Shown here one piece after another: positions 30,452 through 62,901 of a stretch of 64,000 bases of DNA. Source of the DNA: Thermoanaerobaculia bacterium (GTDB lineage: Bacteria > Acidobacteriota > Thermoanaerobaculia > UBA5066). Numbering within the stretch: position 1 is the stretch's first letter; the number at the start of each line of letters is the position of its first letter. The DNA is taken from contig JBBRRY010000001.1 in NCBI GenBank assembly GCA_038245905.1, positions 32,001-96,000 of the forward strand. Reading direction: 5' to 3'. Position numbers and translations under genes: made by a program. Below the pieces are notes generated by a model. The model worked only from the letters and a program-made list of their open reading frames with translations. It did no database searches and was not told where the DNA came from.

Positions 30452-31451
30452 GCGCAGCCGGTGCCACGAGAGCCGGAAGATTTTCTTTGAAAGGGGAAAT
30501 CGTCAACGCCATTCCTTCGCCCGCAAGCTCCCTCTTGACGTACGCGAGGGCCGTTACGCCGCCTCCCTCCGCCGGAGCGACACTCGTGAGCGACCCGGCC
30601 CTTTCACCCTCGAAGAAGACTTCGTCCCCCGGGACCGGGACGCCGCCGGAAACGGAAAGTCGGACGAGCCGCCGGTTCACGTGGCCGTATGTCTTGATGC
30701 GCGCGATCGTCTCCTGCCCGATGTAGCAGCCCTTGCTCTCGGAGATGAAGCCTCGCTCGCGGAGTCCCGCCTCGTCCGGCAGGACGGCCTCGGTCAGCTC
30801 GAAGCCCCAGCGGGGAATGCCGGCGCCGATGCGCAGGGCCTCGAGGCGGTCCGGCGATCCGGGCTCCGCCCCCGCGGAGAGAAACCCAATTCGGATTCTT
30901 TCTGAAAGGGAAGAGGGGACGCGGACGTCGTAGCCGGGGAGGCCGGTGCGGTTTTCGCGGACGATACGGAGGGACGAGACAGAGCCGCCTTCGGCGGCCC
31001 GGGGGTGTTCTTTGAAGGGGAATACGACGGCGCGATGCGCGTGCGGCGTTTCAGGCATCGCGAGGCCGCTCTCGAAGCCCACCCCCCTTCTAAGCAAATC
31101 TTCAGCGCCGCTCCCCGGCACCTCCGCCGTGAGGTGAAAGACAGCGGTAGCGGCCGTTTCATTTCCGATCGTGACGTCGTTGAAGACGAGATATTTCCGA
31201 AGCAAATCTTCTATCTTCTTCCCGAGCTCTGGCTCGCAGTTGATTTCCAGACGATCCTCCTCGCAGAGGACGACGCAGTCGGCAAGCATCTTTCCCTTCG
31301 GAGTGAGGAACGCCGCCGCGCAGCCGGTGCCCGCCGTGAGCTTCCGGATGTCGTTCGTGACGAGACCGTGCAGGAAGGACGCGCGATCCTTGCCGGTGAG
31401 GAGTACCGCGCCGCGCGCGCCGAGGTCGAAGAGGAGGGGACTACCGAGCAT
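30444..31451 (-). CDS. ygfZ: folate-binding YgfZ/GcvT-like protein
   Basis: GKDRASFLHGLVTNDI, FLTPKGKM, signature KGCYIGQE. Confidence 0.9.
   Translation of the reverse strand: MLGSPLLFDLGARGAVLLTGKDRASFLHGLVTNDIRKLTAGTGCAAAFLTPKGKMLADCVVLCEEDRLEINCEPELGKKIEDLLRKYLVFNDVTIGNETAATAVFHLTAEVPGSGAEDLLRRGVGFESGLAMPETPHAHRAVVFPFKEHPRAAEGGSVSSLRIVRENRTGLPGYDVRVPSSLSERIRIGFLSAGAEPGSPDRLEALRIGAGIPRWGFELTEAVLPDEAGLRERGFISESKGCYIGQETIARIKTYGHVNRRLVRLSVSGGVPVPGDEVFFEGERAGSLTSVAPAEGGGVTALAYVKRELAGEGMALTISPFKENLPALVAPAALA
30476..31223. repeat. dispersed GAAGATTTCTTWGAAGG motif, cluster 1 (in ygfZ): + copies 30476, 30893, 31007; - copies 31082-31103, 31195-31223
   Basis: GAAGATTTTCTTTGAAAGGGG; GGATTCTTTCTGAAAGGGAAGAGGGG; GTTCTTTGAAGGGG; rc GAAGATTTGCTTAGAAGGGG; rc GAAGATTTGCTTCGGAA. 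Confidence 0.75.
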
Positions 31452-31738
31452 GCGGGATTCTCGCACCGGACGGACGCACGAGGCCTCCGGCCGCGGAACG
31501 TGCGACAATGCGCCGACGTGACAGAGGTTTCGTGAGCGACGTGGCACCGAAAGCCGCAGGCGCCGTCCGGCGCCGCAGGCGCGGCGGGCGCGGCCGGGCA
31601 GGGGCGAAGGCCAAAGCTGCCGACGAGCTTCCGGACGTCCCGTTTCCCGAAGCCGAACCCGTTCTCGCGGCCCCGCCCTTCCTCATTCCGACGTCGAGTT
31701 TCATCGACGGAATGGGAGCGCCGCCGCCGGCAGGAGCC

Positions 31739-32494
31739 ATGAACCAGGAAGAACAGATCCTCGCTCTCTTCATCGACATCGACAACCTTCTGATCGGGCT
31801 GCGCGAGAGCGGACATCCGAAGTTCGACGTCAAGCTGCTCATTTCGCGTCTCCTCGAGAAGGGGAAGATCGTCGTCAAGCGCGCGTACGCGGACTGGAGC
31901 CGCTACACGGAATACAAGCGCGCGTTCCACGAGTCCGCGTTCGAGCTTATCGACATCCCCCAGCACCGCATGACGGGCAAGAACTCGGCGGACATCCGGA
32001 TGGTCGTGGACGCGATGGACCTCTCCTCGAACAAGCCCCACATCACGACGTTCGTCATCGGCTCGGGCGATTCCGACTTTTCCCCGCTCGTCTCGAAGCT
32101 GAAAGAGAACGACAAGCAGGTGCTGGGCTTCGGCGTGAAGGGCTCGACCTCTGAGCTCCTCATCGACAACTGCGACGAGTTTCTCTACTACGAGGACCTC
32201 GTCCGGGAGAAGACGAAGGTCCCGTCGCTTGCGGGCCTGCCCGAGAAGACGGCGGAGGTCTTCTCGCTTCTCATCGACTCGCTTCTCGCGTTGAAGCGCG
32301 AAAACAAGGAAGTCCTCTGGGGCTCGATGGTCAAGCAGACCATGCAGCGGAAGAACCCGTCCTTCAACGAGAGCTATTACGGCTTCCGCGCATTTTCCGA
32401 TCTGCTGGAGGCAGCGGAGAAGCAGAGCCTCATCTCGCTGAAGCGCGACGGGAAGAGCGGCACGTACATCATCACCGGCTTCGGCAACGCCTGA
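31739..32494 (+). CDS. NYN domain (LabA/DUF88) protein with C-terminal OST-HTH/LOTUS domain
   Basis: LFIDIDN, RAYADW, GKNSADIRMVVDAMD, SGDSDFSPL, CDEFLYY, FNESYYGF..FSDLL; AGGAG RBS; the frame stays open upstream to 31508, so an N-terminal extension is possible. Confidence 0.92.
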   Translation: MNQEEQILALFIDIDNLLIGLRESGHPKFDVKLLISRLLEKGKIVVKRAYADWSRYTEYKRAFHESAFELIDIPQHRMTGKNSADIRMVVDAMDLSSNKPHITTFVIGSGDSDFSPLVSKLKENDKQVLGFGVKGSTSELLIDNCDEFLYYEDLVREKTKVPSLAGLPEKTAEVFSLLIDSLLALKRENKEVLWGSMVKQTMQRKNPSFNESYYGFRAFSDLLEAAEKQSLISLKRDGKSGTYIITGFGNA

Positions 32495-32510
32495 CGCGTC
32501 CGAAGAGCAC

Positions 32511-33120
32511 GAAGAAGATTTCTTTGAATGGTTAAGAGGGGAGCCGGGCCTGGCGTCTGGCCGCCTCTTTCTTCGCGCGCGCTCGGCGCCTTCAAGATTT
32601 TTTCGATCCGGCGCGAGCGTTTCCGCTCGCCGCGTACGGGCAAGCCCCACGACTTCTACGTGCTCGACTGTCCCGACTGGGTGAACGTGATCGCGCTGAC
32701 CGACCGGAACGAGGTGGTCCTGGTGCGGCAGTTTCGGGCCGGAACCCGCTCCGTCACTCTCGAGATCCCGGGGGGCGGCGTGGAGGCGCGCGACGGTTCG
32801 GCCCTCGTCGCGGCCCGGCGCGAGCTGCGGGAGGAGACGGGACACGGGGCGCGACATTGGAAACGCCTCGGGGTCGTGCATCCGAACCCGGCTTTCCAGT
32901 CGAACCGCTGCACCACCTACCTCGCTCGGGGTTGCCGGCGCGTGGGAGATCTCATCCCGGACGCCGGCGAAGACCTCGCCGTGGAATGCGTGCCGCTCGA
33001 GCAGATTCCGGGCCTGATCCGGAGAGGCCGCATCACGCACTCCCTCGTCATCGCCGCTTTCCATTTTCTTTCGCTTCGAAGTTGAGGAGTCCCTATTCTC
33101 CTTTTCTAATCAATATTCTC
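32511..33120. repeat. dispersed motif, cluster 2: + copy 32511-32542 overlapping the NUDIX start; degenerate - copy 33096-33120
   Basis: GAAGAAGATTTCTTTGAATGGTTAAGAGGGG; rc GAGAATATTGATTAGAAAAGGAGAA. Confidence 0.65.
32528..33085 (+). CDS. NUDIX hydrolase (ADP-ribose pyrophosphatase-like)
   Basis: VLVRQFR..LEIPGGGVE..AARRELREETG Nudix box. Confidence 0.92.
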   Translation: MVKRGAGPGVWPPLSSRALGAFKIFSIRRERFRSPRTGKPHDFYVLDCPDWVNVIALTDRNEVVLVRQFRAGTRSVTLEIPGGGVEARDGSALVAARRELREETGHGARHWKRLGVVHPNPAFQSNRCTTYLARGCRRVGDLIPDAGEDLAVECVPLEQIPGLIRRGRITHSLVIAAFHFLSLRS

Positions 33121-33173
33121 CGAATCGCATAGTCTGCCCATTACGTCACGGGCTCGCGTCGGGCGGCTGTGCC

Positions 33174-33188
33174 CGGCACGAACCGTGA
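33174..33188 (+). promoter_or_regulatory. possible sigma-54 promoter for the 33.2-39.8 kb operon
   Basis: CGGCACG-AACC-GTGA: good -24 element, but GA instead of GC at -12. Confidence 0.35.
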
Positions 33189-33234
33189 AATGCCTCTGGC
33201 GGGCGCGAACAAACACTCGCGCCGGGAGGTTCAC

Positions 33235-34758
33235 ATGGTCCGCCACTACGTCGCCCCGATCCTCAGGCTCCTCGCGTTCCTCGGCCTGCTCGCCTCGCCC
33301 CTCGTTCTCGCGGTGATCGCCCGCGCCGAGGAGTCTGATGCAAGGTCCCTTGTGGCTCTCCGATCGGTCATCCTCGGCGAGACGCCGGCCGACCGGTCCG
33401 GACGCGGCGGGCGAGTCGCCGCGAGCGCGCCCGCGACGCTCCTCGAGCGCAGTGGCGGCCGTGTCCTCGTGGCCGCGCCCTCCCGTGGTTCCTCGGCCCA
33501 GGCGCGCGGCTGGGCCGACTCCTCGGCCTTCTTCGTCCTCGACGATCCGTTGGAGCCGATCGAGCGTCTCCTTGGGAACGCGCGACTTCTCCTCGATGCG
33601 AACGACCGGCCGGTCCTTGCGGCCGCCTACCTGCACGAAGTCACGCGGCGCGACGCCTCGCGCGTCGAGGGCTGGGAGCTCCTGGGCCAAGCGGGCGAGC
33701 TGCTCGCGCAGTCGGCCCGTCCCGGCGAGGACGGGCGCCCGCCGGCTTCCGTGGTGCTCGCGGGAGCGTGGGGGATCACGCTCGTACCGAAAGGCGACGG
33801 CACCGGCTACCGATATGACGGCACGGCCTATCGGCGCCTGATCGCGCTCGCGCCTCCGGCCGAGGCGGCCGAGCGGGCCCGCGTGCGGCTCCTCCTGGCC
33901 TGCGGCCCCGTCGTGGATCCCGAGCGGCCGGGTGATGTCGCGACCGCCGTGCTCCGCGAGCGGGATCTCGGCGAGTTCCTCTCCTCGTTCCCGTCGTCGG
34001 CGCGCCGCGTGCCGTTCCTGCTCGAGCGCGCGCGGCTCCTGTCCTGGCTGGCGGAAGGTGCCGCCCGCCGAGGGGACCTCGAGGTGTTTGCCGGTTACCG
34101 CGACGGGGCGATCGAGGCCGCCTCGGAGGTTGCGGCCACGACGCCAGACCTGTCGCGCCGCCGCGCTGCCGACCGTCTCGTCGCGAGGCTCACGAAATCG
34201 TTGCCCCGAAAGGTCGTCTCGGATAAGCCTGTCGTTTCCGCATCGGGAATGCGCGCGCAGTTCGTGGCGAAGGGCGGCGTGACGCTGCTCGTCGTCTCGC
34301 GCCCGGACGGCAAGGACGCGATCCAGCCGTACACGGTCGTTGGCGCGGACCCGGCGAGCCTCGCCTTCGACACGGCAGGCCGGAAACTCGTCTGGGACGA
34401 GGCGCCCACCGCCGGCCGGCGAAGGACGCGGCTCCTGGATCTCGTGCGCGCGAGCGTCGTGGAACCGGCGGCCTCCGCGGAGCCCGAGCTCCTGTCGGCC
34501 GGGACGGCAACGGCCTCGAGCGGGCCGCTGCGGGGCGAAGACCGCTACACGACGTCCCTCGGCTTCTCGCCGGACGGACGCCTGCTCCTCGTCGTCTGCG
34601 AGGGATTCACGCCCGACGGCATCCGGATCCCGAAGCGGCACGTTCTCTGCGACACGGACGGCGGTCGCCGGCCGGTCCTCGTCGACCGCCCGTACTCGGC
34701 GCCGGGTGTCGTGGACTGGAATCGGCTCCAGCATGCGACCGAACGGCTGAGCGGATAA
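33235..34758 (+). CDS. secreted hypothetical protein (helical/TPR-like N-half, beta-propeller-like C-half)
   Basis: GGAGG RBS; signal peptide ending ARA; TolB-like strands (LAFDTAGRKLVW, GFSPDGRLL). Confidence 0.7.
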   Translation: MVRHYVAPILRLLAFLGLLASPLVLAVIARAEESDARSLVALRSVILGETPADRSGRGGRVAASAPATLLERSGGRVLVAAPSRGSSAQARGWADSSAFFVLDDPLEPIERLLGNARLLLDANDRPVLAAAYLHEVTRRDASRVEGWELLGQAGELLAQSARPGEDGRPPASVVLAGAWGITLVPKGDGTGYRYDGTAYRRLIALAPPAEAAERARVRLLLACGPVVDPERPGDVATAVLRERDLGEFLSSFPSSARRVPFLLERARLLSWLAEGAARRGDLEVFAGYRDGAIEAASEVAATTPDLSRRRAADRLVARLTKSLPRKVVSDKPVVSASGMRAQFVAKGGVTLLVVSRPDGKDAIQPYTVVGADPASLAFDTAGRKLVWDEAPTAGRRRTRLLDLVRASVVEPAASAEPELLSAGTATASSGPLRGEDRYTTSLGFSPDGRLLLVVCEGFTPDGIRIPKRHVLCDTDGGRRPVLVDRPYSAPGVVDWNRLQHATERLSG

Positions 34759-34767
34759 TCGCGGGCG

Positions 34768-35241
34768 ATGACGAATTCCCGTCCAAACATGGAAGACCGG
34801 AGGCTGCGGAGGAAATCCGCAGCCTTCCGGTTGAAGCACGACGTTGGGAAGGCGCTCCGCTGGAGCGCGCCTGAGGCTCAGGAGACGAACGCGGAAGAGC
34901 TGTGCGCCCGGCTGACGCGGGATCTGCTCTCGAGTGCGAGCGGTGGCGGAGCGAGTCGTGACGTTCTGGAAAGTTTCTTAGAGTGGAAGAGGGAAGAGGG
35001 GCCGATATTCGCAAGCGATGATCCCGACCTGGAAACGGTCGAGCGGGCCATGGCGGCGGTGAGCCGCCTCGTCCCAAGTCTTCTTACTTTCAAAGAATCC
35101 GAAAGCAAATCCTTCCTTCTTTCTCTCGACGAGGCCTGTCTCGAGGCGTCGCGAGCCTGCACGGCGTTCTACCGGCGCATTGCCGTCGAGGACGGCCCCG
35201 AGATCGTGAGGCGGCGCGGCGAGCTTGCTGGTGACGCGTGA
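34768..35241 (+). CDS. small helical protein with H-box-like motif
   Basis: FRLKHDVGKAL near the N-terminus; stop overlaps the next start (GTGA). Confidence 0.65.
   Translation: MTNSRPNMEDRRLRRKSAAFRLKHDVGKALRWSAPEAQETNAEELCARLTRDLLSSASGGGASRDVLESFLEWKREEGPIFASDDPDLETVERAMAAVSRLVPSLLTFKESESKSFLLSLDEACLEASRACTAFYRRIAVEDGPEIVRRRGELAGDA
34968..35127. repeat. dispersed motif, cluster 3: + copy 34968-35001; - copies 35079-35127
   Basis: GAAAGTTTCTTAGAGTGGAAGAGGGAAGAGGGG; rc GAAGGATTTGCTTTC-GGATTCTTTGAAAGTAAGAAG. Confidence 0.7.
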
Positions 35242-36884
35242 AGGGCGGCCCGCGGGTCCTTGTCGTCGACGACCAGCCGAAGACCGCCGATTTTCTCCGC
35301 CGCCACGCGCCGGATCTCGTCCTCATCGGCCCGTCCGCGGAAAAGCCCTGGGCGGGAAGCTGGGTCGAGGCCGAGGCGGCGATGACGCGCGCCGGAAAGC
35401 TCCCCGATCTCGTCGTGCTCGATCTTCGATTCGACATCCCGGACGAGGAGCTTCTGCCCGACCGGCGGCCGCTCGGCGAGACGGCGGCGGGGAAGCGCGA
35501 CCGGCGGGACCGGCGGGACCGGCAGGGTCTTTTCATCCTCGAGCGCCTGCGCCGCCGCGAGCCCGACCTTCCGGTCCTTCTCACGACCGCGCACGAGGAA
35601 ATTCCCTTCGAGGACGAGGCCCGGCGGCTGCGCGCCGACGCCTTCACGTACACGGTCGGAGAGGACGAGGCGACGGGAGAGGGCCTCGTGCGGCTCGTGC
35701 GCCGCGTGCTCGACGAGCGCGAGTCGCCGCTTTCGACGGGGCGGTTCTTCTGGGGCCGCAGCGCCGCCATGCGCGACCTGCGCCGCCGGATCGCTTCTCT
35801 CGCGCCCACTCCTCTTCCGCTCCTCCTCACGGGGCCGACCGGCTCTGGCAAAAACTTTCTCGTTAAGGAAGTCATCCACCCGCTTTCGTCCCGCAAGGGC
35901 CCGCTCGTCTCCTTCGATTGCGCGACCGTGCCTGAGACGCTCCTTCAGGCGGCGCTCTTCGGCTCGGTGCGCGGCGCGTACACGGGCTCGGTCGCGGATC
36001 GGCCGGGGGTCTTCGAGGCGGCGGCGGGAGGCACACTCTTCATCGACGAGATCGAGAACCTCTCCGGCGATGCGCAGAAGGCTCTCCTGACGGCACTGAA
36101 CGACGGCGTCGTGAGGCGCGTGGGGGCGACGGCGGCTGTGCCCCACACGGCGCGCATCGTGGCGGCCTCCAACATGGACCTCAAGAAGCGCGTGACGGAA
36201 GGTCTCTTCCGGGCGGATCTCCTCATGCGGCTCAACCCGGCGCTCGCCCTGGAGCTGCCGCCGCTCGCGACGCGGCGCGAGGACCTCGAGGATCTCGCGG
36301 ACGACTTCGCCGCGGCGTTCTTCGAGGACCCGGCGAATCGGCTGGAGATCGCGGCGCAGATGCGCGCCGCGGGAGGATCCGAGCCGGACCGGACGGACAC
36401 GTTCGAGCTCGCGCGCGGCGACGACGAGGTGGCGCGCAGCCGGGCGCCCGTGGTATTCGCGCTTCCTCGCAAGGGATGGCAGGCGATCGCGCGCCACCCG
36501 TGGCCCGGCAACGTGCGGCAGTTCGCGATGGTCCTCGCGGACCTGCTCGCGGCCACTCTGTACGGCCGCACGGCCGCCGCGAAGGACCGGAGCGGCCGCG
36601 TCGTGTTCTCGATCGACCCGCGCCTCCTGTTCGATCTCCTGGCCGAGGCCCGTCAGGAGGACGCGCCCGCCGCCGTTGACTCCTTCGTGCTCGCGCGGCC
36701 CCGGGTGGGAAGCGTCGAGGAGTTCCGACGCGAGCTCGAGCGTTCCGCGTTTCGCCAGATCTTCCACGAGTGCGAGGGAGACTTCGCTCGAATGGCGGAG
36801 AGAATGACCGGCTCGGCCGCGAACGAACGAGCCGTGCGCCTGCGATTCAACAAGCTGGGCCTCTCGGCGCGGCGCGAGGCGTGA
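35238..36884 (+). CDS. atypical sigma-54-interacting response regulator (REC with insertion, AAA+, HTH)
   Basis: VLVVDD..VVLDLRFD; GPTGSGKN; LFGSVRGAYTGS; LFIDEIE; FRADLLMRLN; WPGNVRQF. Confidence 0.88.
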   Translation: MKGGPRVLVVDDQPKTADFLRRHAPDLVLIGPSAEKPWAGSWVEAEAAMTRAGKLPDLVVLDLRFDIPDEELLPDRRPLGETAAGKRDRRDRRDRQGLFILERLRRREPDLPVLLTTAHEEIPFEDEARRLRADAFTYTVGEDEATGEGLVRLVRRVLDERESPLSTGRFFWGRSAAMRDLRRRIASLAPTPLPLLLTGPTGSGKNFLVKEVIHPLSSRKGPLVSFDCATVPETLLQAALFGSVRGAYTGSVADRPGVFEAAAGGTLFIDEIENLSGDAQKALLTALNDGVVRRVGATAAVPHTARIVAASNMDLKKRVTEGLFRADLLMRLNPALALELPPLATRREDLEDLADDFAAAFFEDPANRLEIAAQMRAAGGSEPDRTDTFELARGDDEVARSRAPVVFALPRKGWQAIARHPWPGNVRQFAMVLADLLAATLYGRTAAAKDRSGRVVFSIDPRLLFDLLAEARQEDAPAAVDSFVLARPRVGSVEEFRRELERSAFRQIFHECEGDFARMAERMTGSAANERAVRLRFNKLGLSARREA

Positions 36885-36886
36885 GC

Positions 36887-39337: not shown

Positions 39338-39816
39338 TGAAGGCGCTCCGGCGGGTCCTTGTCGTGGAGGACGGGTCGGAATACGTGGAAGGGTTCGAAA
39401 GGATCGCTTCCGCGCGCGGGCTGGAGATCGCCTTCTCGCGCGCCCAGGATCTCGAATCGGCTCGCGCCGCGCTGGCGTCCGGCAGCCGCGACGCGCTGTT
39501 TCTCGACGTCGTCTTCGACCGCACGCCCGAGGATCGCCTCGCGGGAGACGCGGAAGCCCTCGTGGCGCGCTTTGGAGGGGACCGCGTCCGCGCCATGCGC
39601 CACCTGGCGACGCACCAGGGCTTCTACGTCCTCGACGCTCTCGCCCCTCTTCTGCCCTGGATTCCAGTTCTCATCGCGTACGACTTCGCCGCGGAGCCAC
39701 AGCGTCTCGAGGCCCTCAGAGGTCGCGTCCGGGGGCTTCGCGGCCTCCCGGACGGCACGTCACTTTCCGCGGTGCTGGACCTTCTCCTCAGATCTCCTGA
39801 AACACGAACCGATTGA
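39337..39816 (+). CDS. single-domain receiver-like protein with insertion
   Basis: RVLVVEDG..DALFLDVVFD..QGFYVLDAL..IPVLI; TAATG coupling to the kinase. Confidence 0.75.
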   Translation: MKALRRVLVVEDGSEYVEGFERIASARGLEIAFSRAQDLESARAALASGSRDALFLDVVFDRTPEDRLAGDAEALVARFGGDRVRAMRHLATHQGFYVLDALAPLLPWIPVLIAYDFAAEPQRLEALRGRVRGLRGLPDGTSLSAVLDLLLRSPETRTD

Positions 39817-40846: not shown

Positions 40847-40902
40847 GACGCTCTCCTCGCGAAGCCTGAGGCGTAGTGGCCTCGCATGCTAACGTGATTT
40901 CG

Positions 40903-41544: not shown

Positions 41545-42083
41545 TGGCTTCGGAGGAGGAAAGAGAGATTCTTAGAAAGGTCGCCCGGGATGCGGCGGCC
41601 CGCGCGATGGGGCAGCGGCCTGTGGCACTGCCGGAAATCCCTGAGGGAAGCACCCTCCTTCAGCCGGCGCCCGTGTTCGTCACGTGGAGAAGAGACGGGC
41701 GCCTGCGGGGCCGGAGCGGAACGACGGCACCCGACGCCGCACTCCTCGCCCTGGTGACGAAGCACGCCGTCGACGCTCTCTTGCACGACCCGCGCGTCCC
41801 CCCTGCGACGGCGACGGAGCTCCCGCGTCTCGTGCCCGAGATCAGCATCCTCTCGCCCTTCGAAGAAATCTTCGGGGCCGAAGGCCTCCTTGCCGGTATT
41901 CACGGCGTCCTCGTGGAGAAGGGAAAACGCCGTGGCGTCCTCTTGCCGCAGGACGCCACGGGCTTCGCCTGGGGCGGCGCGCAAATGCTGTCGCAGGCCT
42001 GCCTCAGAGCGGGACTTCCGGAGGAGAGCTGGCAGGCTCCGGGCCGCCCGCGTCTCCTCCGGTTCACCGCAGACGTGTTCTGA
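41541..42083 (+). CDS. amrA: AMMECR1 family protein (AmmeMemoRadiSam protein A)
   Basis: VFVTW..GRLRG, DPRVPP, EISILSP, HGVLV..GVLLPQ, ACLRAGL. Confidence 0.82.
   Translation: MMASEEEREILRKVARDAAARAMGQRPVALPEIPEGSTLLQPAPVFVTWRRDGRLRGRSGTTAPDAALLALVTKHAVDALLHDPRVPPATATELPRLVPEISILSPFEEIFGAEGLLAGIHGVLVEKGKRRGVLLPQDATGFAWGGAQMLSQACLRAGLPEESWQAPGRPRLLRFTADVF
41552..41873. repeat. dispersed motif, cluster 4: + copy 41552-41580; - copy 41849-41873
   Basis: GAAAGAGAGATTCTTAGAAAGG; rc GAAGATTTCTTCGAAGGGCGAGAGG. Confidence 0.75.
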
Positions 42084-42088
42084 AGGGA

Positions 42089-42823: not shown

Positions 42824-42885
42824 GGGATGAGATCCTCGCTTTTCGTTTGATGACGGCCCGAAGGGCGCGGCCGAAGAAGGGGATT

Positions 42886-43782
42886 CTATCCCGGAGATGC
42901 CGGGCGGCGGGTCAATATCTGAAGGAGAACCCCCGCGGCGACGGCCGCGTTCAGGGATTCGACACGGCCCAGGAGCGGAACGGTCACGCGATGATCGAGG
43001 GCCGCCGCGAGCTCAGGCGAGATTCCGTGACCCTCGGAGCCGATCACAAGGGCGATCGGGCGGACTCCGGCCATCGCCTCGGGCGCGGTGCCGCCACGGG
43101 CCTCTGCGCCAATCAGGGCAATCCCGTTCGCACGCGCAAAGACGACGGTCTCTGAAGCCGCGACGCGGGTGGCGACCGGAAGGCGAAAGGCGCTGCCCGC
43201 GGACGCTCGCAGGGCGCGCGGGGAAAACGGCGACGCGGAACCCGGTGTGAGGAGCGCGGCCGCGGCACCGAACGCTTCACCGCTGCGCAGAATCGCCCCC
43301 ACGTTCACGGGGTCCTGGATGTCGTCCAGGATGAGAAACAAGAGAGAAGAGAAAGATTTCTTTGAAGGTAATGAGGAAGGAGAAAGAGAAGAAGAAGATT
43401 TCTTAGAGGGTAATTCGGGAAAGAGGGAAGCCAGGGTTCGGCTCGGTGGAGACGCGAGCGCGACGACGCCGCGTGTTGAGGGAAGAGCGGAGAGTTTCTG
43501 GAGGACGCGCGCGCTGACCGCCGTCACCCGCGGCGACGGCGTCGCTCTCCGCGCATCGCCTTCCCCTCTTACCCTTCTAAGAAAATCCTTCTCTTCCTCT
43601 TCTCCTTCCTTGTCTTCTCCCAATTCCTTCCGAACAAACACTTCCTCGATCCGGATTCCCGCATCGAGCGCGTCCTCGATCATTCTCCGGCCCTCGAGCA
43701 GCATGGAGGCGCCGCTCGCGGCGGCCTTCACGGCCGCCGCGATGCGGGGATTCGAGGGCGCGTCGATCCGCGTGGTCGTCAA
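42886..43782 (-). CDS. TrmH/SPOUT family RNA methyltransferase with two low-complexity insertions
   Basis: SNPRI, LLEG, IQDPVNVGAILRS, RASAG, IGSEGHG, VESLNAAVA; start estimated at TTG 43782. Confidence 0.9.
   Translation of the reverse strand: MTTTRIDAPSNPRIAAAVKAAASGASMLLEGRRMIEDALDAGIRIEEVFVRKELGEDKEGEEEEKDFLRRVRGEGDARRATPSPRVTAVSARVLQKLSALPSTRGVVALASPPSRTLASLFPELPSKKSSSSLSPSSLPSKKSFSSLLFLILDDIQDPVNVGAILRSGEAFGAAAALLTPGSASPFSPRALRASAGSAFRLPVATRVAASETVVFARANGIALIGAEARGGTAPEAMAGVRPIALVIGSEGHGISPELAAALDHRVTVPLLGRVESLNAAVAAGVLLQILTRRPASPG
43341..43620. repeat. dispersed motif, cluster 5 (in the TrmH-family gene): + copies 43351, 43391; - copy 43561-43591; long GA tracts
   Basis: GAAAGATTTCTTTGAAGGTAATGAGG; GAAGAAGATTTCTTAGAGGGTAAT; rc GAAGGATTTTCTTAGAAGGGTAAGAGGGG. 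Confidence 0.85.
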
Positions 43783-43834
43783 GACCTCCCGAGAATACCG
43801 TCCCGGCCCGCGCCCGTGCTCTAATCCGCGCCGC

Positions 43835-47195: not shown

Positions 47196-47357
47196 GCCGT
47201 TTCTAGAATGCCACGCCGGGCGAAGCGGGAGCGGACGGCCTCCAACGGCAAGGATTGATTAGCCGATGTGAATAGGATAACGTCAGCGGACGGAAGAATT
47301 CCGGTTAGGCGGTCAAGTGTTTTCGAGCCGCGCTCCGTGATCTTTCGAGAGGTGTGT

Positions 47358-48683: not shown

Positions 48684-48686
48684 GGC

Positions 48687-50246
48687 TCATAGCTTCGACG
48701 CGGGATCGTCGCTGAACGCCTTCACGAGGAGGTGTTTCTGGACCTTGCCGAGCGCGTTGCGGGGCAGGTCCGGGACCGCGTGAACCTCGCGTGGCTTCTT
48801 GAAGTCGGCGAGATGCTCGGCCGCGAAGGCGGCGACCGCCTCGCAGACGGCTGCCGTTTTCCCCGTCGGCCCGGCGTCCTTGAGAACGATGGCCGCGGCG
48901 ACGCGCTGGCCCCAGACACGATCCGGAAGCCCGACGACCGCGGCGTCCTTGACGGCGGGATGCCGCCGGAGGACGTCCTCGATCTCTCTCGCCGAGATCT
49001 TGAAGCCTCCGCTCTTGATGATGTCGACGGACCTGCGGCCGACGATCGTCACATAGCCGTCGATGTCGCGCCGCGCCACGTCACCGGTCAGAAACCAGCC
49101 GTCCCGGAACGCGGCCGCCGTCTCGTCGGAGCGCCGCCAATAGCCATTCATGAGGCCATTGCCTTTCACCTGGATCTCGCCGAGCTCTCCCACGGGGGAC
49201 TCGCGTCCCTCGTCGTCAACGAGCCGGACCGAGCAGCCCGGGACCGGAAATCCCACGGTCCCTGGGCGCCGCTCGCCGTCATGGGGATTCGAGAGCGTGA
49301 AGAGCGTTTCGCTCATCCCATAGCGCTCCAGGATCGCGTGGCCGGTCTTCTCCTGAAAGGCGCGGAAGTCGGACGCCGGAAGGGGCGAGCTGCCCGCCGT
49401 GAAGAGACGGGCTCTCCGAAGAGCGGCGGCGGCTTCGGGCTGCGCATCCAGGTGCTCCAGGAGCCGGACGTACATCGTGGGGACGCCCATGAAGGCGGTG
49501 GCACTCTCGCGCGCGAAGGCCTCGACGGCGCGGGCCGCGTCGAAGCGTTCTTCGAGGAGGAGCGTGAAGCCCTTGACGAGCGCGCCCGCGACGCCGAGGC
49601 AGAGCCCGTGCACGTGGAAGAGGGGAAGCGCGAGGACGAGACGGTCGAGCTCCGAGAACCGCCAGAGGTCCATCACGGCGCGCGTGTTCGCCTCGAGCGC
49701 GCGGTGCGAAAGCGCGACGCCCTTGCTCTGGCCGGTCGTGCCCGAGGTGTAGATGAGCATCGCCACGTCGTTGTCGGCTGGCGGCTCGGATTCGGAGGAA
49801 GAGGGGAAGATCTGCTTAGAAGGTGAAGAGGGAAGAGGGAGAGGAACCGCGTCGGCCAGGGCGATGACGTGCTTCAGACGCGGGGGCCTGCTCATTCTAA
49901 GAATCTCTCTTAGGACCTCATTGCACTCTTCCCCCTCATCGCCCACGAGCACCGCGACGGCGCCCGAGTCCTCGAGAATGTGCCGAGCCTCGCCGGCCTT
50001 GTACCGCGTGTTGATCGGGACGTGAATGACGCCCGAGGCGAGGTGTCCGATGAAAACGGCGATCAGCTCGGGGCGGGTCTCGGCGAAGATCGCCACGCGG
50101 TCACCGCGCTGGACGCCCGCCCGCTCGAGGAAGGCCACGTATTCGCCCGCCCACTGCCGCATTTCTTCGAATGTGTAAGACCGGCCCTTCCACACGACCG
50201 CCGGATCCGCCGCGCGGGTGCGCAGGCAGGACAAGAGGCTCGTCAT
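48687..50246 (-). CDS. acyl-CoA synthetase, malonyl-CoA synthetase (MatB)-like
   Basis: YTSGTTGQSKG, LPLFHVHGL, ILERYGMSET (MatB-type ERYGMTE), GWFLTGD, IIKSGG, LPRNALGKVQK. Confidence 0.85.
   Translation of the reverse strand: MTSLLSCLRTRAADPAVVWKGRSYTFEEMRQWAGEYVAFLERAGVQRGDRVAIFAETRPELIAVFIGHLASGVIHVPINTRYKAGEARHILEDSGAVAVLVGDEGEECNEVLREILRMSRPPRLKHVIALADAVPLPLPSSPSKQIFPSSSESEPPADNDVAMLIYTSGTTGQSKGVALSHRALEANTRAVMDLWRFSELDRLVLALPLFHVHGLCLGVAGALVKGFTLLLEERFDAARAVEAFARESATAFMGVPTMYVRLLEHLDAQPEAAAALRRARLFTAGSSPLPASDFRAFQEKTGHAILERYGMSETLFTLSNPHDGERRPGTVGFPVPGCSVRLVDDEGRESPVGELGEIQVKGNGLMNGYWRRSDETAAAFRDGWFLTGDVARRDIDGYVTIVGRRSVDIIKSGGFKISAREIEDVLRRHPAVKDAAVVGLPDRVWGQRVAAAIVLKDAGPTGKTAAVCEAVAAFAAEHLADFKKPREVHAVPDLPRNALGKVQKHLLVKAFSDDPASKL
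49794..49911. repeat. dispersed motif, cluster 6: + copy 49806-49839; - copy 49891-49911
   Basis: GAAGATCTGCTTAGAAGGTGAAGAGGGAAGAGGG; rc AAGAGAGATTCTTAGAATGAG (17 nt identical to 41561-41577). Confidence 0.8.
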
Positions 50247-61148: not shown

Positions 61149-62365
61149 TTCCGCTTGTCCCAGGGCACCATCGGGTAGAGCGCTTCCTTCTCGGCCACGT
61201 TCGCGGGGAAGACGGTGTACTTCCTCCCGTCCGGCTGGAGCTGCTCGATCGCCATCGGCTTGTAGATGTTGATCCCGCGGGAGTCGAACTTGATCTGCCC
61301 GTAGAACGTCATGATGTCGAGCGCCGCGATGGCGTCGCGGACGTTCGACGGGTCGAGCGAGTTCGCCTTCTCGATGGCGCGCCAGAACGCGATGACGGCG
61401 GCCGAGGACTCGGCGACCTGGTAGGGGATGACGGAGTACTTCGGGTTCTTCGCCCGGAACGCGTCGCCATAGGCTTTCGGCGTCTTCCACGGGTCGTCGC
61501 CGTTGTACTTGAGCGCTTCCGTCCACTGCGTCGCACCGAAGATGTAGTCCGCGTTGCTCTTCAGGTTCTCGCGGAACTCCGGCGACGAGGGTCCGACCGA
61601 AAAGCCCATCGCCTTGGGCGAGACGCCGAGGTCCTTGGCCTGCTTGACGATGAGGAGCGCGTCCTGCAGGTGGCCGGCCCCGAGGACGATGTCGGGGTTC
61701 TTCGCCTTGATGTTCGTCAGGAGCGCGCTCACGTCCTGCGTGCCGGTCGGATACAGCTCCTGGTAGACGACCGTGAGGCCCTTCTCCTTCGCGTAATCGG
61801 CGCCGCCGGAGGCCACTTCCTTGGAGAACGGCTCGTTCTCGCCGAGGACCGCCACGGTCTTCGCGGTCTTGTCCCTCGCGATCACGAGGTCGATGAGGCC
61901 CTTGAGGTAGAGCTTCGCGGGGGAGAGGACGGCGAACGTGTACTTGTAGCCCTTGTTGAAGATCGACTCGGCCGAGCCGTTCGCCTCGATCATCGGGATC
62001 TTGTACTTCTCGCAGATCGGGGCGGCCGTGCCCGAGGGGGCGGAGCCATACGGGCCGAGGATGAACGTGACCTTGTCCTCGTTGATGAGCTTCTCGATGA
62101 GCTGGGCCGTCCGCTCGGACTTCGACTCGTCGTCGTAGTACTTGACGCTGACCTTGTACTTCTTCCCGCCGACCGTGATTCCGCCGATTTCGTTGAGCTT
62201 GTCGACGAAGAAGTTGTAGCCGTCCCGGGTGTACTCGCCTTCCTTGGCGGTCTTGCCGGTCAGCGAGACGGCGGCGCCGAAGACGATCGTGTCCTCGGCA
62301 GGAGCGGGCAGAGCGGAGACGAGAAGCAGGAATGCGAGCAGCGGGACCAGCGCGGTACGCTCCAT
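61145..62365 (-). CDS. LivK-type substrate-binding protein
   Basis: Signal peptide; FGAAVSLTG, YYDDES, LGPYGS; AGGAGG RBS. Confidence 0.9.
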   Translation of the reverse strand: MERTALVPLLAFLLLVSALPAPAEDTIVFGAAVSLTGKTAKEGEYTRDGYNFFVDKLNEIGGITVGGKKYKVSVKYYDDESKSERTAQLIEKLINEDKVTFILGPYGSAPSGTAAPICEKYKIPMIEANGSAESIFNKGYKYTFAVLSPAKLYLKGLIDLVIARDKTAKTVAVLGENEPFSKEVASGGADYAKEKGLTVVYQELYPTGTQDVSALLTNIKAKNPDIVLGAGHLQDALLIVKQAKDLGVSPKAMGFSVGPSSPEFRENLKSNADYIFGATQWTEALKYNGDDPWKTPKAYGDAFRAKNPKYSVIPYQVAESSAAVIAFWRAIEKANSLDPSNVRDAIAALDIMTFYGQIKFDSRGINIYKPMAIEQLQPDGRKYTVFPANVAEKEALYPMVPWDKRK

Positions 62366-62445
62366 CGAGAGCCTCCTGTGACCGGGTCGGGTAATTTGTG
62401 CGGGAACTATACCCGAGGGATCAATGCGCGGGGAGGGGGAAGAGA

Positions 62446-62901
62446 GTGGCCGTGGCCGATGTCCAGCGCTTCGTCGGGGTGTGGGATCTTGAGGGAATTG
62501 AAGACGAAGATTTCTTTGAAGGTACGAGGGGAAGGGTGCCGGCTGTCGGCCTTGAGCGGCCTGTGGGGCTCCTCATCTACCTCGCTTCGGGCGAGATGTC
62601 GGTGAACTTTGCCGGGTCCTCCCGCATTCACTTTCTAAGAGAATTCTTCCCGTCCCCCTCCGAGCTCGCGGCGGCCGGCGCCGCGTACGGCGGGTATGCG
62701 GGGCGGTGGGAGCTGGACGAGGCGCGCCACGAGGTGCTGCATCACGCGGAGGTCGCCTTCATCCCGAATCGCGTCGGCCGGACGATCCGCCGCTCTTACT
62801 CATTCGCAGAAGAATCTTCTCTTCTCTCTCTTCGTCCCATCGCGCTCTCGCCGCACGAGAAGGCGCCAGAACGGACCCTGAAGTGGAGACGGCGGACCTG
62901 A
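62446..62901 (+). CDS. lipocalin-like domain protein
   Basis: FVGVWDL, GLLIY..GEMSV, YGGYAGRW, HHAEVAFIPNRVG, LKWRR; GGAGG RBS. Confidence 0.8.
   Translation: MAVADVQRFVGVWDLEGIEDEDFFEGTRGRVPAVGLERPVGLLIYLASGEMSVNFAGSSRIHFLREFFPSPSELAAAGAAYGGYAGRWELDEARHEVLHHAEVAFIPNRVGRTIRRSYSFAEESSLLSLRPIALSPHEKAPERTLKWRRRT
62506..62833. repeat. dispersed motif, cluster 7: + copy 62506-62536; - copies 62631-62651 and 62793-62833 (degenerate)
   Basis: GAAGATTTCTTTGAAGGTACGAGGGG (18 nt identical to 43353-43370); rc GAAGAATTCTCTTAGAAAG; rc GAGAAGATTCTTCTGCGAATGAGTAAGAG. Confidence 0.8.

What the first reader, a model, noticed from the sequence alone, without database searches (positions are those of the whole stretch)
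30476..62833. Motif copies are arranged as convergent pairs: + copies left, - copies right in all 7 clusters
Seen: 30476/30893/31007(+) vs 31103/31223(-); 32511(+) vs 33120(-); 34968(+) vs 35100/35127(-); 41561(+) vs 41873(-); 43351/43391(+) vs 43591(-); 49806(+) vs 49911(-); 62506(+) vs 62651/62833(-). The inner gap is about 50-550 bp and the polarity is independent of host-gene orientation. Inference: fixed inverted geometry suggests paired functional sites, such as protein-bridged DNA loops, boundaries for a directional loader, long-range stems in ssDNA or mRNA, ends of a decayed MITE, or arms of intragenic invertible segments. Weaker + look-alikes at about 50159 and 50603 have no partner that I could see.
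Basis: partly seen in the sequence, partly recalled or inferred. Interest (0 to 1): 0.8.

Follow-up and report, generated by a model that had tools for sequence, protein, structure and literature searches.

The report
Genus-wide inward-facing motif pairs inside genes
A short AT-rich DNA word, found only in one genus of sediment Acidobacteria, is written over ordinary genes hundreds of times, almost always as two copies facing each other about 100 bases apart; this layout matches no described repeat family and its function is unknown.

Summary
The motif M is [purine-rich] GAWTTCTTNGAAGGT [purine-rich] with a near-palindromic core, TTCTTNGAA. It has about 650 copies in this 3.8 Mb, 68% GC genome.

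- **Orientation:** neighbours up to 200 nt apart are + then - in 172 cases, against 5 for - then +. Of 484 strong copies, 76% have an opposite-strand partner within 300 nt on their 3' side and 4% on their 5' side.
- **Spacing:** the median gap is about 100 nt, in ORFs and in intergenic DNA alike.
- **Location:** two thirds of copies lie inside real housekeeping genes, in all reading frames. The central base is chosen so that no stop codon arises.
- **Not an insertion:** in a sister genus the segment between the arms is homologous protein sequence.
- **Conservation and range:** pairs are kept at orthologous sites across the genus. The motif occurs in every genus genome searched and in no other genus of the class beyond 1-2 chance hits.
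- **Rejected:** decayed MITE or REPIN (no RAYT, no arm-to-arm similarity) and recoding invertons.
- **Disfavoured:** dsDNA looping, because spacing shows no helical phasing.
- **Best guess (about 0.35):** the arms close a roughly 100-nt hairpin domain in RNA or ssDNA that a genus-specific factor reads. The arms can pair, but covariation is absent.

The mechanism is unproven.

The parts
30477..30495 (+). M copy, left arm of pair 1, inside the YgfZ/GcvT-like gene 30444-31451(-); read as ..PFKEN..
   Evidence: 30.1 bits; Pfam GCV_T and GCV_T_C for the ORF; in homologues this site arises by substitution, not insertion
30605..30623 (-).
   Evidence: 20.8 bits; homologues carry E[IV]F[FL]EGE at the same place
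31002..31020 (+). M copy, left arm of pair 2, in the YgfZ gene; read as FPFKE in a loop that more distant homologues lack
   Evidence: 21.0 bits; the alignment shows a short lineage-specific insertion here
31084..31102 (-). M copy, right arm of pair 2; read as EDLLRR
   Evidence: 26.3 bits; kept in the one syntenic locus that covers it
31192..31210 (-). Weak extra M copy over the anciently conserved peptide EDLLRKY of YgfZ
   Evidence: 16.4 bits; the peptide is conserved even in homologues of 50% identity, so this may be a chance or pre-adapted match
32514..32532 (+). M copy, left arm of pair 3, just upstream of or at the start of the NUDIX gene 32528-33085(+)
   Evidence: 28.0 bits; Pfam NUDIX
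33100..33118 (-). Weak M copy, right arm of pair 3, just after the NUDIX stop codon (gap 567 nt, the widest in the window)
   Evidence: 15.5 bits; stronger copies at the same place in 2 of 5 syntenic loci that cover it
34969..34987 (+). M copy, left arm of pair 4, in ORF 34768-35241(+) (no Pfam family); read as ESFLEW
   Evidence: 24.1 bits; present in 11 of 11 syntenic genus loci that cover it
35085..35103 (-). M copy, right arm of pair 4; read as LTFKES
   Evidence: 15.9 bits; a copy of at least 14 bits maps here in 8 genus loci; RNAalifold pairs it with 34969-34987
41563..41581 (+). M copy, left arm of pair 5, in the AMMECR1 gene 41541-42083(+); read as EILRK
   Evidence: 24.9 bits; Pfam AMMECR1; at least 12 bits in 17 of 17 syntenic loci
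41855..41873 (-). M copy, right arm of pair 5; read as FEEIF
   Evidence: 25.1 bits; at least 12 bits in 17 of 17 syntenic loci
43352..43370 (+). Extra M copy from a 42-nt tandem duplication of the left arm, specific to this species; in the SpoU methylase gene (- strand)
   Evidence: 30.4 bits; absent from most orthologues in the alignment, at least 12 bits in 1 of 16
43394..43412 (+). M copy, left arm of pair 6; read on the - strand as LPSKKS in the linker before the SpoU methylase domain
   Evidence: 26.2 bits; Pfam SpoU_methylase and SpoU_sub_bind; copies map here in 12 genus loci
43571..43589 (-). M copy, right arm of pair 6; read as KDFLRR
   Evidence: 28.7 bits; copies map here in 16 genus loci; the segment between the arms encodes the conserved SpoU substrate-binding domain
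49807..49825 (+). M copy, left arm of pair 7, in the AMP-binding enzyme gene 48687-50246(-)
   Evidence: 23.3 bits; the Pfam AMP-binding match runs through it without a break
49891..49909 (-). M copy, right arm of pair 7; read as EILRM
   Evidence: 24.6 bits
50157..50175 (+). Unpaired weak M copy
   Evidence: 18.0 bits; best opposite-strand score within 300 nt 3' is -3.0 bits
50603..50621 (+). Unpaired weak M copy
   Evidence: 18.4 bits; best opposite-strand score within 300 nt 3' is 0.3 bits
62506..62524 (+). M copy, left arm of pair 8, in the lipocalin-like gene 62446-62901(+)
   Evidence: 29.5 bits; Pfam Lipocalin_5
62629..62647 (-). M copy, right arm of pair 8
   Evidence: 25.8 bits; the minimum-energy fold pairs it with 62506-62524
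62799..62817 (-). Weak second right-hand copy of pair 8
   Evidence: 17.3 bits

Best explanation
What is shown. M is a lineage-specific cis-element kept by selection at the nucleotide level. It has a conserved 12-nt core, TTTCTTNGAA.G, inside a roughly 37-nt purine-rich tract. It is superimposed on ordinary coding and non-coding DNA. It works as a two-part unit: two copies on opposite strands with their 3' sides facing each other, typically 60-130 nt apart. The unit is not a mobile insertion and the segment between the arms is ordinary host sequence.

What is inferred. The two arms act together on a single strand. Because the repeat is inverted, a transcript of either strand, or either DNA strand when unwound, reads 5'-M ... 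rcM-3'. The conserved cores, plus the purine-rich and pyrimidine-rich flanks, can close a hairpin domain of about 100 nt. A factor peculiar to this genus would recognise that closing duplex by sequence and polarity, and then process, stabilise, pause at or prime from the hairpin. Which of these it does is unknown.
For: **Paired unit with fixed polarity.** Neighbours up to 200 nt apart are +- in 172 cases and -+ in 5. Of 484 strong copies, 76% have a partner of at least 12 bits on the 3' side and 4% on the 5' side. Among the exact-pattern matches that searches list for other genus genomes (a partial listing), 9 of 9 pairs under 400 nt apart are + then -.

**Selection at the nucleotide level.**
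- Copies occur in all six combinations of orientation and codon phase: 86, 61 and 58 sense; 102, 37 and 91 antisense.
- The central base avoids A exactly where it would make an in-frame TAG or TAA: 2 of 58 and 4 of 102, against 49 of 61 in a permissive frame.
- Pairs are kept at orthologous sites in species of 68-92% DNA identity.
- Motif identity across species is 0.82-0.88, against 0.62-0.71 in the flanks, for four of the six conserved arms (34969, 41563, 41855, 43571). At 35085 the motif is less conserved than its flanks (0.68 against 0.78), and at 43394 the figures are 0.74 against 0.48.

**Restricted to the genus.** 24 of 24 and 9 of 9 genus genomes carry 21-128 exact copies. Six genomes of four other genera in the same family carry none. 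Elsewhere in the class, 5 genomes have 1-2 copies and the rest none (151 genomes in all, own genome included).

**A single-stranded stem is plausible.**
- In minimum-energy RNA folds of 70 of the 213 pairs (a random sample of those spanning at most 180 nt), the left core pairs with the right core at 8 or more positions in 84%.
- Mean z is -2.2, against 0.04 for control segments (Mann-Whitney p = 6e-12).
- Four of five window pairs close this way.
- RNAalifold draws the same closing stem on two alignments of 10 species each. In one, 92% of cells are paired, against 53-67% when partners are slid.

**Against rigid dsDNA geometry.** Spacing is broad (inter-quartile range 83-150 nt centre to centre) with no 10.5-bp phasing (R = 0.078, p about 0.3). 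Some pairs have gaps of only 11-32 nt.
Against: - **No covariation.** Within the genome, a copy's own partner is no more alike or more pairable than a shuffled partner: z = 0.1 for the motif, 0.0 for the outer flank, and 1.1 and 0.5 when wobble pairs are allowed. Across species, the covariation score is reached by 88 of 500 shuffles and RNAalifold's covariation terms are unfavourable. The stem is therefore possible but not demonstrated.
- **Spacing.** A plain hairpin should prefer short loops where nothing forbids them. Yet intergenic pairs have the same median gap of about 98 nt as intragenic ones, and only 11% are under 45 nt.
- **Wobble test.** Wobble-compatible mismatches in the sense transcript are only slightly in excess, 682 against 617 (p = 0.08).
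- **No factor and no expression data.** No recognising factor was identified. No run is on record as RNA, so transcription, cleavage or pausing at the arms could not be examined.
Confidence: 0.35

Rival explanations
1. Paired double-stranded DNA sites. A two-fold symmetric, genus-specific DNA-binding protein binds both M sites, each with a 9-bp near-palindromic core, and bridges or wraps the roughly 100 bp between them. It would act as a nucleoid or topology element, comparable in copy number to the gyrase- and IHF-binding BIME/REP sites of enterobacteria (that comparison is recalled, not tested).
For: - The core TTCT-T-AGAA is a palindrome typical of sites bound by protein dimers.
- The sequence, not a structure, is what is conserved, and there is no covariation.
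- The roughly 100-bp spacing is the same in coding and non-coding DNA, and few pairs are under 45 bp, as expected if DNA stiffness sets a lower bound.
- There are 347 clusters in 3.8 Mb, with no preference for position along genes.
Against: - Spacing shows no helical phasing (R = 0.078 at 10.5 bp, n = 203). Short protein-held loops normally show it.
- Gaps range from 11 to over 250 nt.
- Clusters are not regularly spaced along the chromosome: the coefficient of variation is 1.25 against 1.0 for random placement, and there are deserts of 44-100 kb.
Confidence: 0.2
2. Oriented signals for a machine that tracks along DNA or RNA. Each M is a polar 'arrow' that loads, pauses or blocks a polymerase, helicase or translocase. 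Inward-facing arrows make two such machines converge on the segment between them, or confine something there. The logic resembles KOPS pointing at dif, or convergent polar barriers.
For: - Polarity is strict, while spacing is loose and unphased.
- Multi-copy clusters read as arrows converging on a centre (+++-, ++--, +--, +-+-), never as close -+.
- The arms do not co-vary, as expected for independent signals.
- M contains TTCTTT or TTCTTA, which resembles the NusG-dependent pause word TTNTTT on the non-template strand (recalled, not tested).
Against: - Independent polar signals alone do not explain why -+ neighbours are missing, unless the two events interact.
- Nothing special was found in the inner segment: information content there is about 0.01-0.03 bits per position.
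- Terminator-like sites are not enriched (15 found, 14.0 expected) and no sigma-70-like promoter was found.
- Rho is present, so M does not stand in for a lost Rho.
Confidence: 0.15
3. Molecular drive rather than a function at each locus. M would be a DNA-uptake or recombination-bias signal like USS or DUS. It would spread because fragments carrying it are preferentially taken up or recombined, and it would settle wherever the protein tolerates it.
For: - The motif is taxon-specific and enriched about 86-fold: 13 copies against 0.15 expected in 240 kb.
- It lies over coding sequence in all frames, with frame-dependent variants.
- It arises by substitution at tolerant sites.
- It is conserved among species.
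- ComEC and DprA are present, although most bacteria have them.
- The abstract of PMC2817400 reports that uptake sequences occupy coding regions and shape proteomes.
Against: Known uptake sequences act as single copies in either orientation. Here 76% of strong copies have a partner in one fixed geometry about 100 nt away, which uptake bias does not predict. Density is about 1 per 6 kb, several-fold lower than I recall for USS or DUS.
Confidence: 0.1
4. Remnants of a mobile element: a MITE, a REPIN moved by a RAYT, or a Rickettsia-type palindromic element inserted in frame.
For: Copies form inverted pairs with variable inner length. Some arms come with short low-complexity insertions (E/K-rich or S/P/L-rich) relative to the sister genus: 5 of 15 first arms and 7 of 15 second arms. 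One arm is tandemly duplicated in this species.
Against: - In all 15 pairs compared, the inner segment aligns with the sister-genus protein. In 14 it is clearly homologous; in the pair in C21_43598_46042 identity is 0.24 and the subject frame holds a stop. Overall identity is 0.18-0.67.
- 10 of 15 first arms and 8 of 15 second arms align without any gap.
- Pfam domains run through the pairs.
- The arms of a pair are no more alike than arms of different pairs.
- The own genome has no Y1/RAYT transposase, and only 3 of 24 genus genomes have one.
- Sites are orthologously conserved rather than polymorphic.
Confidence: 0.03
5. Intragenic invertons: one genus-wide invertase flips the segments between the inverted M sites to recode or switch off genes.
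For: Inverted repeats sharing one consensus flank intragenic segments. Intragenic invertons are a described phenomenon (bioRxiv 10.1101/2023.03.11.532203; I saw the search listing and the start of the abstract).
Against: - Simulated inversion leaves the ORF open in 48% of 138 pairs, against 61% of 1380 random segments of the same length. The antisense register is not biased (57, 44, 37).
- The segments include catalytic cores of essential enzymes.
- Both +- and -+ arrangements would be invertible, yet only +- occurs.
Confidence: 0.03

Closest known systems
HIP1, the highly iterated palindrome GCGATCGC of cyanobacteria (PMC5861425, abstract read)
   Same: Both are short, taxon-restricted words, over-represented many-fold, lying within and between ORFs, and conserved at orthologous sites, so kept by selection. 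In both cases the function is unknown.
   Different: HIP1 is a true palindrome and so has no orientation or pairing rule. M is asymmetric and works as inward-facing pairs about 100 nt apart. M is far rarer (about 1 per 6 kb) and confined to one genus.
DNA uptake sequences, USS and DUS (PMC2817400, listing and start of abstract seen; other details recalled)
   Same: Both are lineage-specific motifs written over coding sequence in several frames at sites the protein tolerates, and both are conserved among relatives.
   Different: Uptake sequences act singly in either orientation. Inverted DUS pairs are tight terminator hairpins between genes (recalled). M is obligately paired, with a loop of about 100 nt, and mostly intragenic.
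REP/REPIN elements with RAYT transposases (PMC3116915 and PMC3337134, listing and start of abstracts seen)
   Same: [quoted passage not shown]
   Different: REPINs are extragenic, are copied as whole units including the spacer, and depend on a RAYT gene. M pairs lie mostly inside genes, enclose unrelated host sequence, show no arm-to-arm similarity, and the genome has no RAYT.
Rickettsia palindromic elements and other in-frame MITEs (recalled; mentioned in the listing of PMC10969869)
   Same: Both are palindromic repeats found inside protein-coding genes without breaking the frame.
   Different: RPEs are insertions of a whole 100-150-bp element that adds a peptide. Here the inner segment is ancestral protein sequence and the arms mostly arise by substitution.
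Integron attC sites (recalled)
   Same: Both have two short conserved inverse core sites separated by a variable stretch of about 50-140 nt. attC sites are thought to act as a folded single strand read by a protein with fixed polarity.
   Different: attC inner regions are themselves palindromic, non-coding and arrayed beside an integrase gene. M pairs are dispersed, their inner regions are coding, and no integrase link was examined.

Membership tests
REPIN / REP-RAYT | Two conserved repeats in inverted orientation with a spacer | tested here: met
   172 +- against 5 -+ neighbours within 200 nt
REPIN / REP-RAYT | Extragenic location | tested here: not met
   435 of 652 copies of at least 16 bits lie deep inside ORFs. 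16 of 20 tested host ORFs have Pfam families.
REPIN / REP-RAYT | A cognate RAYT (Y1 transposase) gene in the genome | tested here: not met
   PF01797 gives no match in the own genome (96% complete) and matches in 3 of 24 other genus genomes
REPIN / REP-RAYT | The whole unit, arms plus spacer, is copied, so copies and arms are related | tested here: not met
   Inner segments are unrelated host coding sequence. The own partner is no more similar than a shuffled partner.
MITE / Rickettsia-type in-frame palindromic element | Present as an insertion relative to orthologues that lack it | tested here: not met
   In 15 pairs compared with the sister genus, the inner segment aligns with the orthologue in all 15 (weakly in one: identity 0.24, stop in the subject frame). 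The first arm is ungapped in 10 and the second in 8.
MITE / Rickettsia-type in-frame palindromic element | Terminal inverted repeats of one copy match each other; target-site duplication | tested here: not met
   No arm similarity within a pair beyond the consensus. Target-site duplications were not looked for.
Intragenic invertons | Inverted repeats flanking a segment inside a gene | tested here: met
   138 of 213 pairs lie deep inside ORFs
Intragenic invertons | Both orientations of the segment exist in the population | not testable with these tools
   Only assembled contigs of four DNA runs could be laid. No strand-switch joint at a pair appears among the 15 joints listed; 120 more were not shown.
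Intragenic invertons | Inversion yields an alternative open frame or a defined switch | tested here: not met
   The ORF stays open in 48% of 138 pairs, against 61% of 1380 random segments
DNA uptake sequences (USS/DUS) | Lineage-specific, strongly over-represented motif also found in coding DNA in several frames | tested here: met
   13 copies observed against 0.15 expected per 240 kb; genus-only distribution; six combinations of orientation and frame
DNA uptake sequences (USS/DUS) | Copies act singly, with orientation and neighbours irrelevant | tested here: not met
   76% of 484 strong copies have a partner on the 3' side, against 4% on the 5' side
DNA uptake sequences (USS/DUS) | Preferential uptake of DNA that carries the motif | not testable with these tools
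   ComEC and DprA are present, but that does not discriminate
HIP1-like iterated palindromes | Over-represented word conserved at orthologous sites within and between ORFs | tested here: met
   For example, both arms at 41563 and 41855 score at least 12 bits in 17 of 17 syntenic loci.
HIP1-like iterated palindromes | True palindrome, so no polarity or pairing | tested here: not met
   The flanks and central base are asymmetric and the +- pairing is strict
Intrinsic terminators | Short-loop GC-rich stem followed directly by a U tract | tested here: not met
   15 terminator-like sites in 30300-50200, against 14.0 expected. Only 3 touch an M copy, using its TTTCTT as the tail. M pairs have loops of about 100 nt.

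The most novel reading that the evidence does not exclude
The M pairs are the cis half of an undescribed genus-wide system. A lineage-specific protein or ribonucleoprotein reads inward-facing sites written over hundreds of ordinary genes and acts on the roughly 100 nt between them, for instance by capturing that stretch as a hairpin-closed RNA or single-stranded DNA domain for cleavage, priming or protection. That would be a new class of chromosome-wide element, sharing neither the mobility of REPINs and MITEs nor the single-site logic of HIP1, USS, Chi or KOPS.
Probability: 0.3. Interest if true: 0.9.

Novelty: new variant of a known kind. Interest (0 to 1): 0.8.

Why it matters
Short words that selection keeps all over a genome (Chi, KOPS, uptake sequences, HIP1, REP) each point to a machine that reads the chromosome. 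Several of them are still unexplained after decades.

This case adds an unusually informative constraint: strict inward-facing pairing at about 100 nt, imposed even on the catalytic cores of housekeeping enzymes, at the cost of rare codons and altered residues. It arose at the base of a single genus and is absent from its sister genera. That makes the reader protein findable by comparing gene content, and the function testable with synonymous reporters.

It also matters in practice. The arms add purine-rich and pyrimidine-rich low-complexity stretches to proteins and lower coding scores, which can mislead gene callers and repeat or MITE finders on these metagenome-assembled genomes.

Tried and rejected
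- **Rfam and tRNA scans of the window:** no family reached its gathering score and no tRNA was found.
- **Literature:** the full-text search for TTCTTAGAA found 214 papers; none of the 20 listed concerns a bacterial repeat. 'Thermoanaerobaculia' with 'inverted repeat' found 0 papers. 'Not in print' rests on these two searches only.
- **RAYT/REPIN idea:** rejected.
- **M replaces a lost Rho:** rejected. The Rho RNA-binding domain is found in the own genome and in 21 of 24 other genus genomes.
- **M as Shine-Dalgarno or 16S-tail mimic:** the own genome has no assembled 16S. In three genus genomes the 16S 3' end reads ..CACCTCCTTTCTAAGG or ..CTAAAGG. Its complement scores 15.6 bits in one of the three and under 12 in the other two. 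I judged this a partial resemblance that does not cover the conserved core.
- **Analogous motif in the sister genus:** a k-mer search of 240 kb of G086 found only tandem coding repeats and one local palindromic word, and no dispersed AT-rich counterpart. The sample is small.
- **Gene position, gene conservation, GC content:** pairs are spread evenly along genes. Genes with M are no more conserved in the sister genus than genes without, 12.7% against 13.9%. The correlation with GC content is weakly negative (rho = -0.22).
- **Sequencing runs:** no RNA holder is listed. Laying contigs of four DNA runs showed no inversion joint at a pair among the joints listed.
- **Viral contigs:** 99 stretches each held a single exact 16-mer match, with no pairs. 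I did not follow these up; chance matches in AT-richer phage DNA are likely.
- **Sigma-70-like promoters in 30300-50200:** none found, 0.7 expected.

Full report
**Recovering the motif.** The finding gave coordinates but no sequence. Reading those places shows an AT-rich word, roughly GAAGATTTCTTWGAAGG, in a window of 67% GC. The window is C1:32001-96000 of a genome of 3,797,265 bases in 113 contigs, 67.8% GC. The 9-mers TTCTTAGAA and TTCTTTGAA occur 149 and 119 times on both strands together. In the first 240 kb of contig 1, TTCTTAGAA occurs 13 times against 0.15 expected from a second-order model. I built a 19-nt weight matrix by iterating from 315 seeds. It finds 652 copies of at least 16 bits, against 142 in the reversed genome, and 491 of at least 20 bits, against 27. 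Information content extends from about -11 to +25 around a core TTTCTTNGAA.G. Both flanks are purine-rich on the motif strand, and nothing beyond that is conserved. With N = A the core TTCT-T-AGAA is a 9-bp palindrome. Orientation comes from the central base and the flanks.

**Checking the observation.**
- In the window, 21 copies reach 12 bits, all between 30477 and 62817.
The ones near 30893 (9.1 bits) and 35127 (2.2 bits) are not.
- One copy was missed, 30605-30623(-). With it the window holds eight + then - pairs with gaps of 63-567 nt.
- Genome-wide, neighbours of at least 16 bits within 200 nt are +- 172, -+ 5, ++ 26, -- 28. The contrast sharpens at higher thresholds: 118, 1, 13, 15 at 20 bits or more, and 52, 0, 7, 2 at 24 bits or more.
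- Of 484 copies of at least 20 bits, 76% have an opposite-strand copy of at least 12 bits within 300 nt on their 3' side, 4% on their 5' side, and 11-12% have a same-strand copy on either side.

Among the exact-pattern matches listed for other genus genomes (partial listings), all nine pairs closer than 400 nt are + then -.

**Where the pairs lie.** I called genes with a simple codon-usage ORF scorer of my own, so gene boundaries are approximate.
- Of 213 pairs (at least 14 bits, gap at most 400), 145 lie wholly inside an ORF and 138 deep inside one.
- The flanks code on the same strand and in the same phase in 76 cases, shifted in 33, on different strands in 15 and unclear in 88.
- Pfam confirms the host ORFs in 16 of 20 tested. 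In the window these are a YgfZ/GcvT-like protein with five copies, NUDIX, AMMECR1, a SpoU methylase, an AMP-binding enzyme and a lipocalin-like protein.
- Elsewhere they are a PLP-dependent decarboxylase of the LysA type with seven copies, a GHMP kinase, HemC, HemD, ApbE, RsmE, a Ser/Thr kinase and a ketoacyl synthase.
- The domain matches run through the pairs and exceed profile length by fewer than about 10 residues.
- Pairs are spread evenly along genes. They occur in + and - genes alike, 49 and 60.

**The motif is fitted onto the reading frame.** Copies inside ORFs use every combination of orientation and codon phase: sense 86, 61, 58 and antisense 102, 37, 91. The central base depends on the frame. 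A is used in 49 of 61 copies in a permissive frame. It is used in only 2 of 58 and 4 of 102 copies in the two frames where it would create an in-frame TAG or TAA; there C or T takes its place. The encoded peptides therefore differ (FLEG, LLRK, ISLK; FEEI, LLRK, PSKK) while the DNA word stays the same. This is the signature of a constraint at the nucleotide level.

**Not an insertion.** I fetched 1.04 Mb of a sister genus of the same family, G086, which lacks the motif. I then aligned 15 pairs with likely orthologues of at least 45% identity.
- The segment between the arms aligns with the sister-genus protein in all 15. Identity is 0.18-0.67, and in one pair (0.24, with a stop in the subject frame) homology is doubtful.
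- The first arm aligns without a gap in 10 and the second in 8.
- The rest carry short E/K-rich or S/P/L-rich extensions.
- In PurM the arms overlay ..ARKIFFEG.. and ..PLVENSLL.., either side of a conserved stretch that precedes the ..ITGGG.. motif.
- The YgfZ alignment with 14 database homologues shows the same: three arms lie on pre-existing peptides and one lies in a short lineage-specific loop.

**Conservation and taxonomic range.**
- A 19.9-kb stretch of the window finds syntenic DNA in all 29 genus genomes searched, the own genome included, at 68-92% identity.
- Copies map to the same window positions in many loci: 34969(+) in 11 loci and 35085(-) in 8; 41563(+) in 15 and 41855(-) in 17; 43394(+) in 12 and 43571(-) in 16.
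- With a gap-free read-out, both arms of the AMMECR1 pair score at least 12 bits in 17 of 17 covering loci. Motif identity is 0.82-0.88 against 0.62-0.71 in nearby flanks for four of these six arms. The exceptions are 35085, with 0.68 in the motif against 0.78 in the flanks, and 43394, with 0.74 against 0.48.
- Other sites vary. The extra copy at 43352 is a 42-nt tandem duplication special to this species.
- The exact 14-nt pattern occurs 21-128 times in each of 24 of 24 other genus genomes and never in 16 genomes of two other families.
- In a class-wide draw it occurs in 9 of 9 genus genomes, in 0 of 6 genomes of four other genera of the same family, and 1-2 times in 5 of the remaining genomes.
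- These out-group tallies include G025 and G030, which are flagged as unpublished. The conclusion does not depend on them.
- Names attached to homologues place the organism among Thermoanaerobaculia, phylum Acidobacteriota.

**Tests of mechanism.**
1. *Arm-to-arm relation.* The two copies of a pair are no more alike than copies from different pairs (motif z = 0.1, outer flank 0.0, inner flank 2.6). They are no more pairable when G-U is allowed (z = 1.1 and 0.5).
2. *Pairing potential.* Because both arms match one consensus, they can still pair.
   - In minimum-energy RNA folds of 70 pairs sampled from the 213, the cores pair with each other in 84%. The mean z-score is -2.2, against 0.04 for control segments 3 kb away.
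   - Four of five window pairs fold this way, with z from -0.7 to -2.1.
   - RNAalifold draws the same closing stem on two alignments of 10 species each, but with unfavourable covariation terms.
   - On one alignment 92% of cells pair, against 53-67% when partners are slid. However, 132 of 500 column shuffles do as well.
   - The stem is thus possible but unproven.
3. *Spacing.* The centre-to-centre median is 112 nt, with an inter-quartile range of 83-150. There is no 10.5-bp periodicity (R = 0.078, p about 0.3). There is an unexplained signal at 9 nt (R = 0.20, p about 2e-4 before correcting for 14 periods). The median gap is the same inside ORFs (96), outside them (98) and at their edges (102).
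4. *Chromosomal distribution.* There are 347 clusters. Spacing is slightly over-dispersed (coefficient of variation 1.25 against 1.0), with deserts of 44-100 kb.
5. *Mobile-element idea.* The own genome has no Y1/RAYT transposase, and 3 of 24 genus genomes have one.
6. *Inverton idea.* A simulated inversion keeps the ORF open less often than for random segments (48% against 61%). Laid contigs show no strand-switch joint at a pair among the joints listed.
7. *Transcription signals.* No sigma-70-like promoter was found and terminator-like sites are at chance level. Rho is present.
8. *Sense-transcript wobble test.* 682 compatible against 617 incompatible transitions, p = 0.08.
9. *Competence genes.* ComEC and DprA are present, which does not discriminate.

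**Reading.** The element is a selected, genus-specific, two-armed cis-element superimposed on genes. I hold that part with high confidence. How it works is inferred.
- Only models in which the two arms interact explain why -+ neighbours are missing.
- Unphased, loose spacing and gaps as small as 11 nt argue against a rigid double-stranded loop.
- The inverted layout gives the same 5'-M...rcM-3' on either strand, and the folds say the arms would close a hairpin domain.
- I therefore favour recognition on a single strand, RNA or ssDNA, by a sequence-specific factor of this genus, at about 0.35.
- The absence of covariation and the preference for about 100 nt even in non-coding DNA count against it.
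- Those same two points keep a dsDNA bridging protein (0.2) and converging polar signals for a tracking machine (0.15) alive.
- An uptake-type drive (0.1) explains the overlay on genes but not the pairing.
- MITE/REPIN and inverton readings are close to excluded.

**Comparison with what is known.** The closest kinds are HIP1 of cyanobacteria (selected, taxon-specific, in and between ORFs, function unknown; abstract of PMC5861425) and uptake sequences. Both lack polarity and pairing. REPINs share the inverted doublet but fail on location, on RAYT and on copying as a unit. My two literature searches found no description of this motif or of paired motifs in this class. I rate it a new variant of the kind 'selected genome-wide iterated motif'. 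There is a substantial chance that it marks a new kind of system.

Noticed in passing
window 47977-48542: A dense tandem array with 12- and 18-nt periods (CGCCGACG..-like units; 20-32 copies per family) gives a Thr/Pro-rich low-complexity stretch in ORF 47268-48683(+). Laid contigs show raised depth and many joints here, so repeat number probably varies between strains.
   Followed up: no
window 1-30476 (genome C1:18021-62477); also C3:48788-148676: These are motif deserts: no copy of at least 12 bits in the first 30 kb of the window, a 44-kb gap on C1 and a 100-kb gap on C3 holding 82 ordinary-looking genes at normal GC (0.68). I found no reason for the deserts.
   Followed up: partly
L058 (G011) about 3051-3069; L059, L060: The 16S rRNA 3' end and start of the spacer in this genus read ..GGATCACCTCCTTTCTAAGG.. 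Its complement resembles M, sharing CTTAGAA, GG and TGA, and scores 15.6 bits in one of three genus genomes. The 3' half of M (AGAAGGTGA) is also a strong Shine-Dalgarno-like word.
   Followed up: partly
genome-wide pair spacing: Centre-to-centre distances show a 9-nt periodicity (R = 0.20, p about 2e-4 before correcting for 14 periods tested) but none at 10.5 nt and only a weak one at 3 nt.
   Followed up: no
window 32512 and 43587: There are length polymorphisms next to or inside motif copies in the probable source sample. An AG insertion in the purine tract before the copy at 32514 has depth 60.9 of 109.7. A 1-nt deletion lies in the T run of the copy at 43571-43589.
   Followed up: no
L061, L063, L064 and L068, L069 (sister genus G086): G086 has a long coding array of 150-bp tandem repeats. 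Separately, the word ACTGATGGA is locally very frequent (17 copies in 20 kb), sometimes as a tight inverted pair. Neither is dispersed like M.
   Followed up: partly
genome C40:15796-16269 and C40:17273-18061: A four-copy M cluster (+---) lies in the gene directly upstream of the ComEC competence gene. With 27 such clusters in the genome, this is probably coincidence.
   Followed up: no
window 30986-31017, 30613-30642, 41860-41883: Three motif copies are directly preceded by a short GC-rich hairpin, so the simple scan flags them as terminator-like with the TTTCTT of M as the tail. The total number of such sites is at chance level.
   Followed up: no
window 11226-19481: A single ORF of 2751 codons on the + strand with a very high coding score contains no motif copy.
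   Followed up: no
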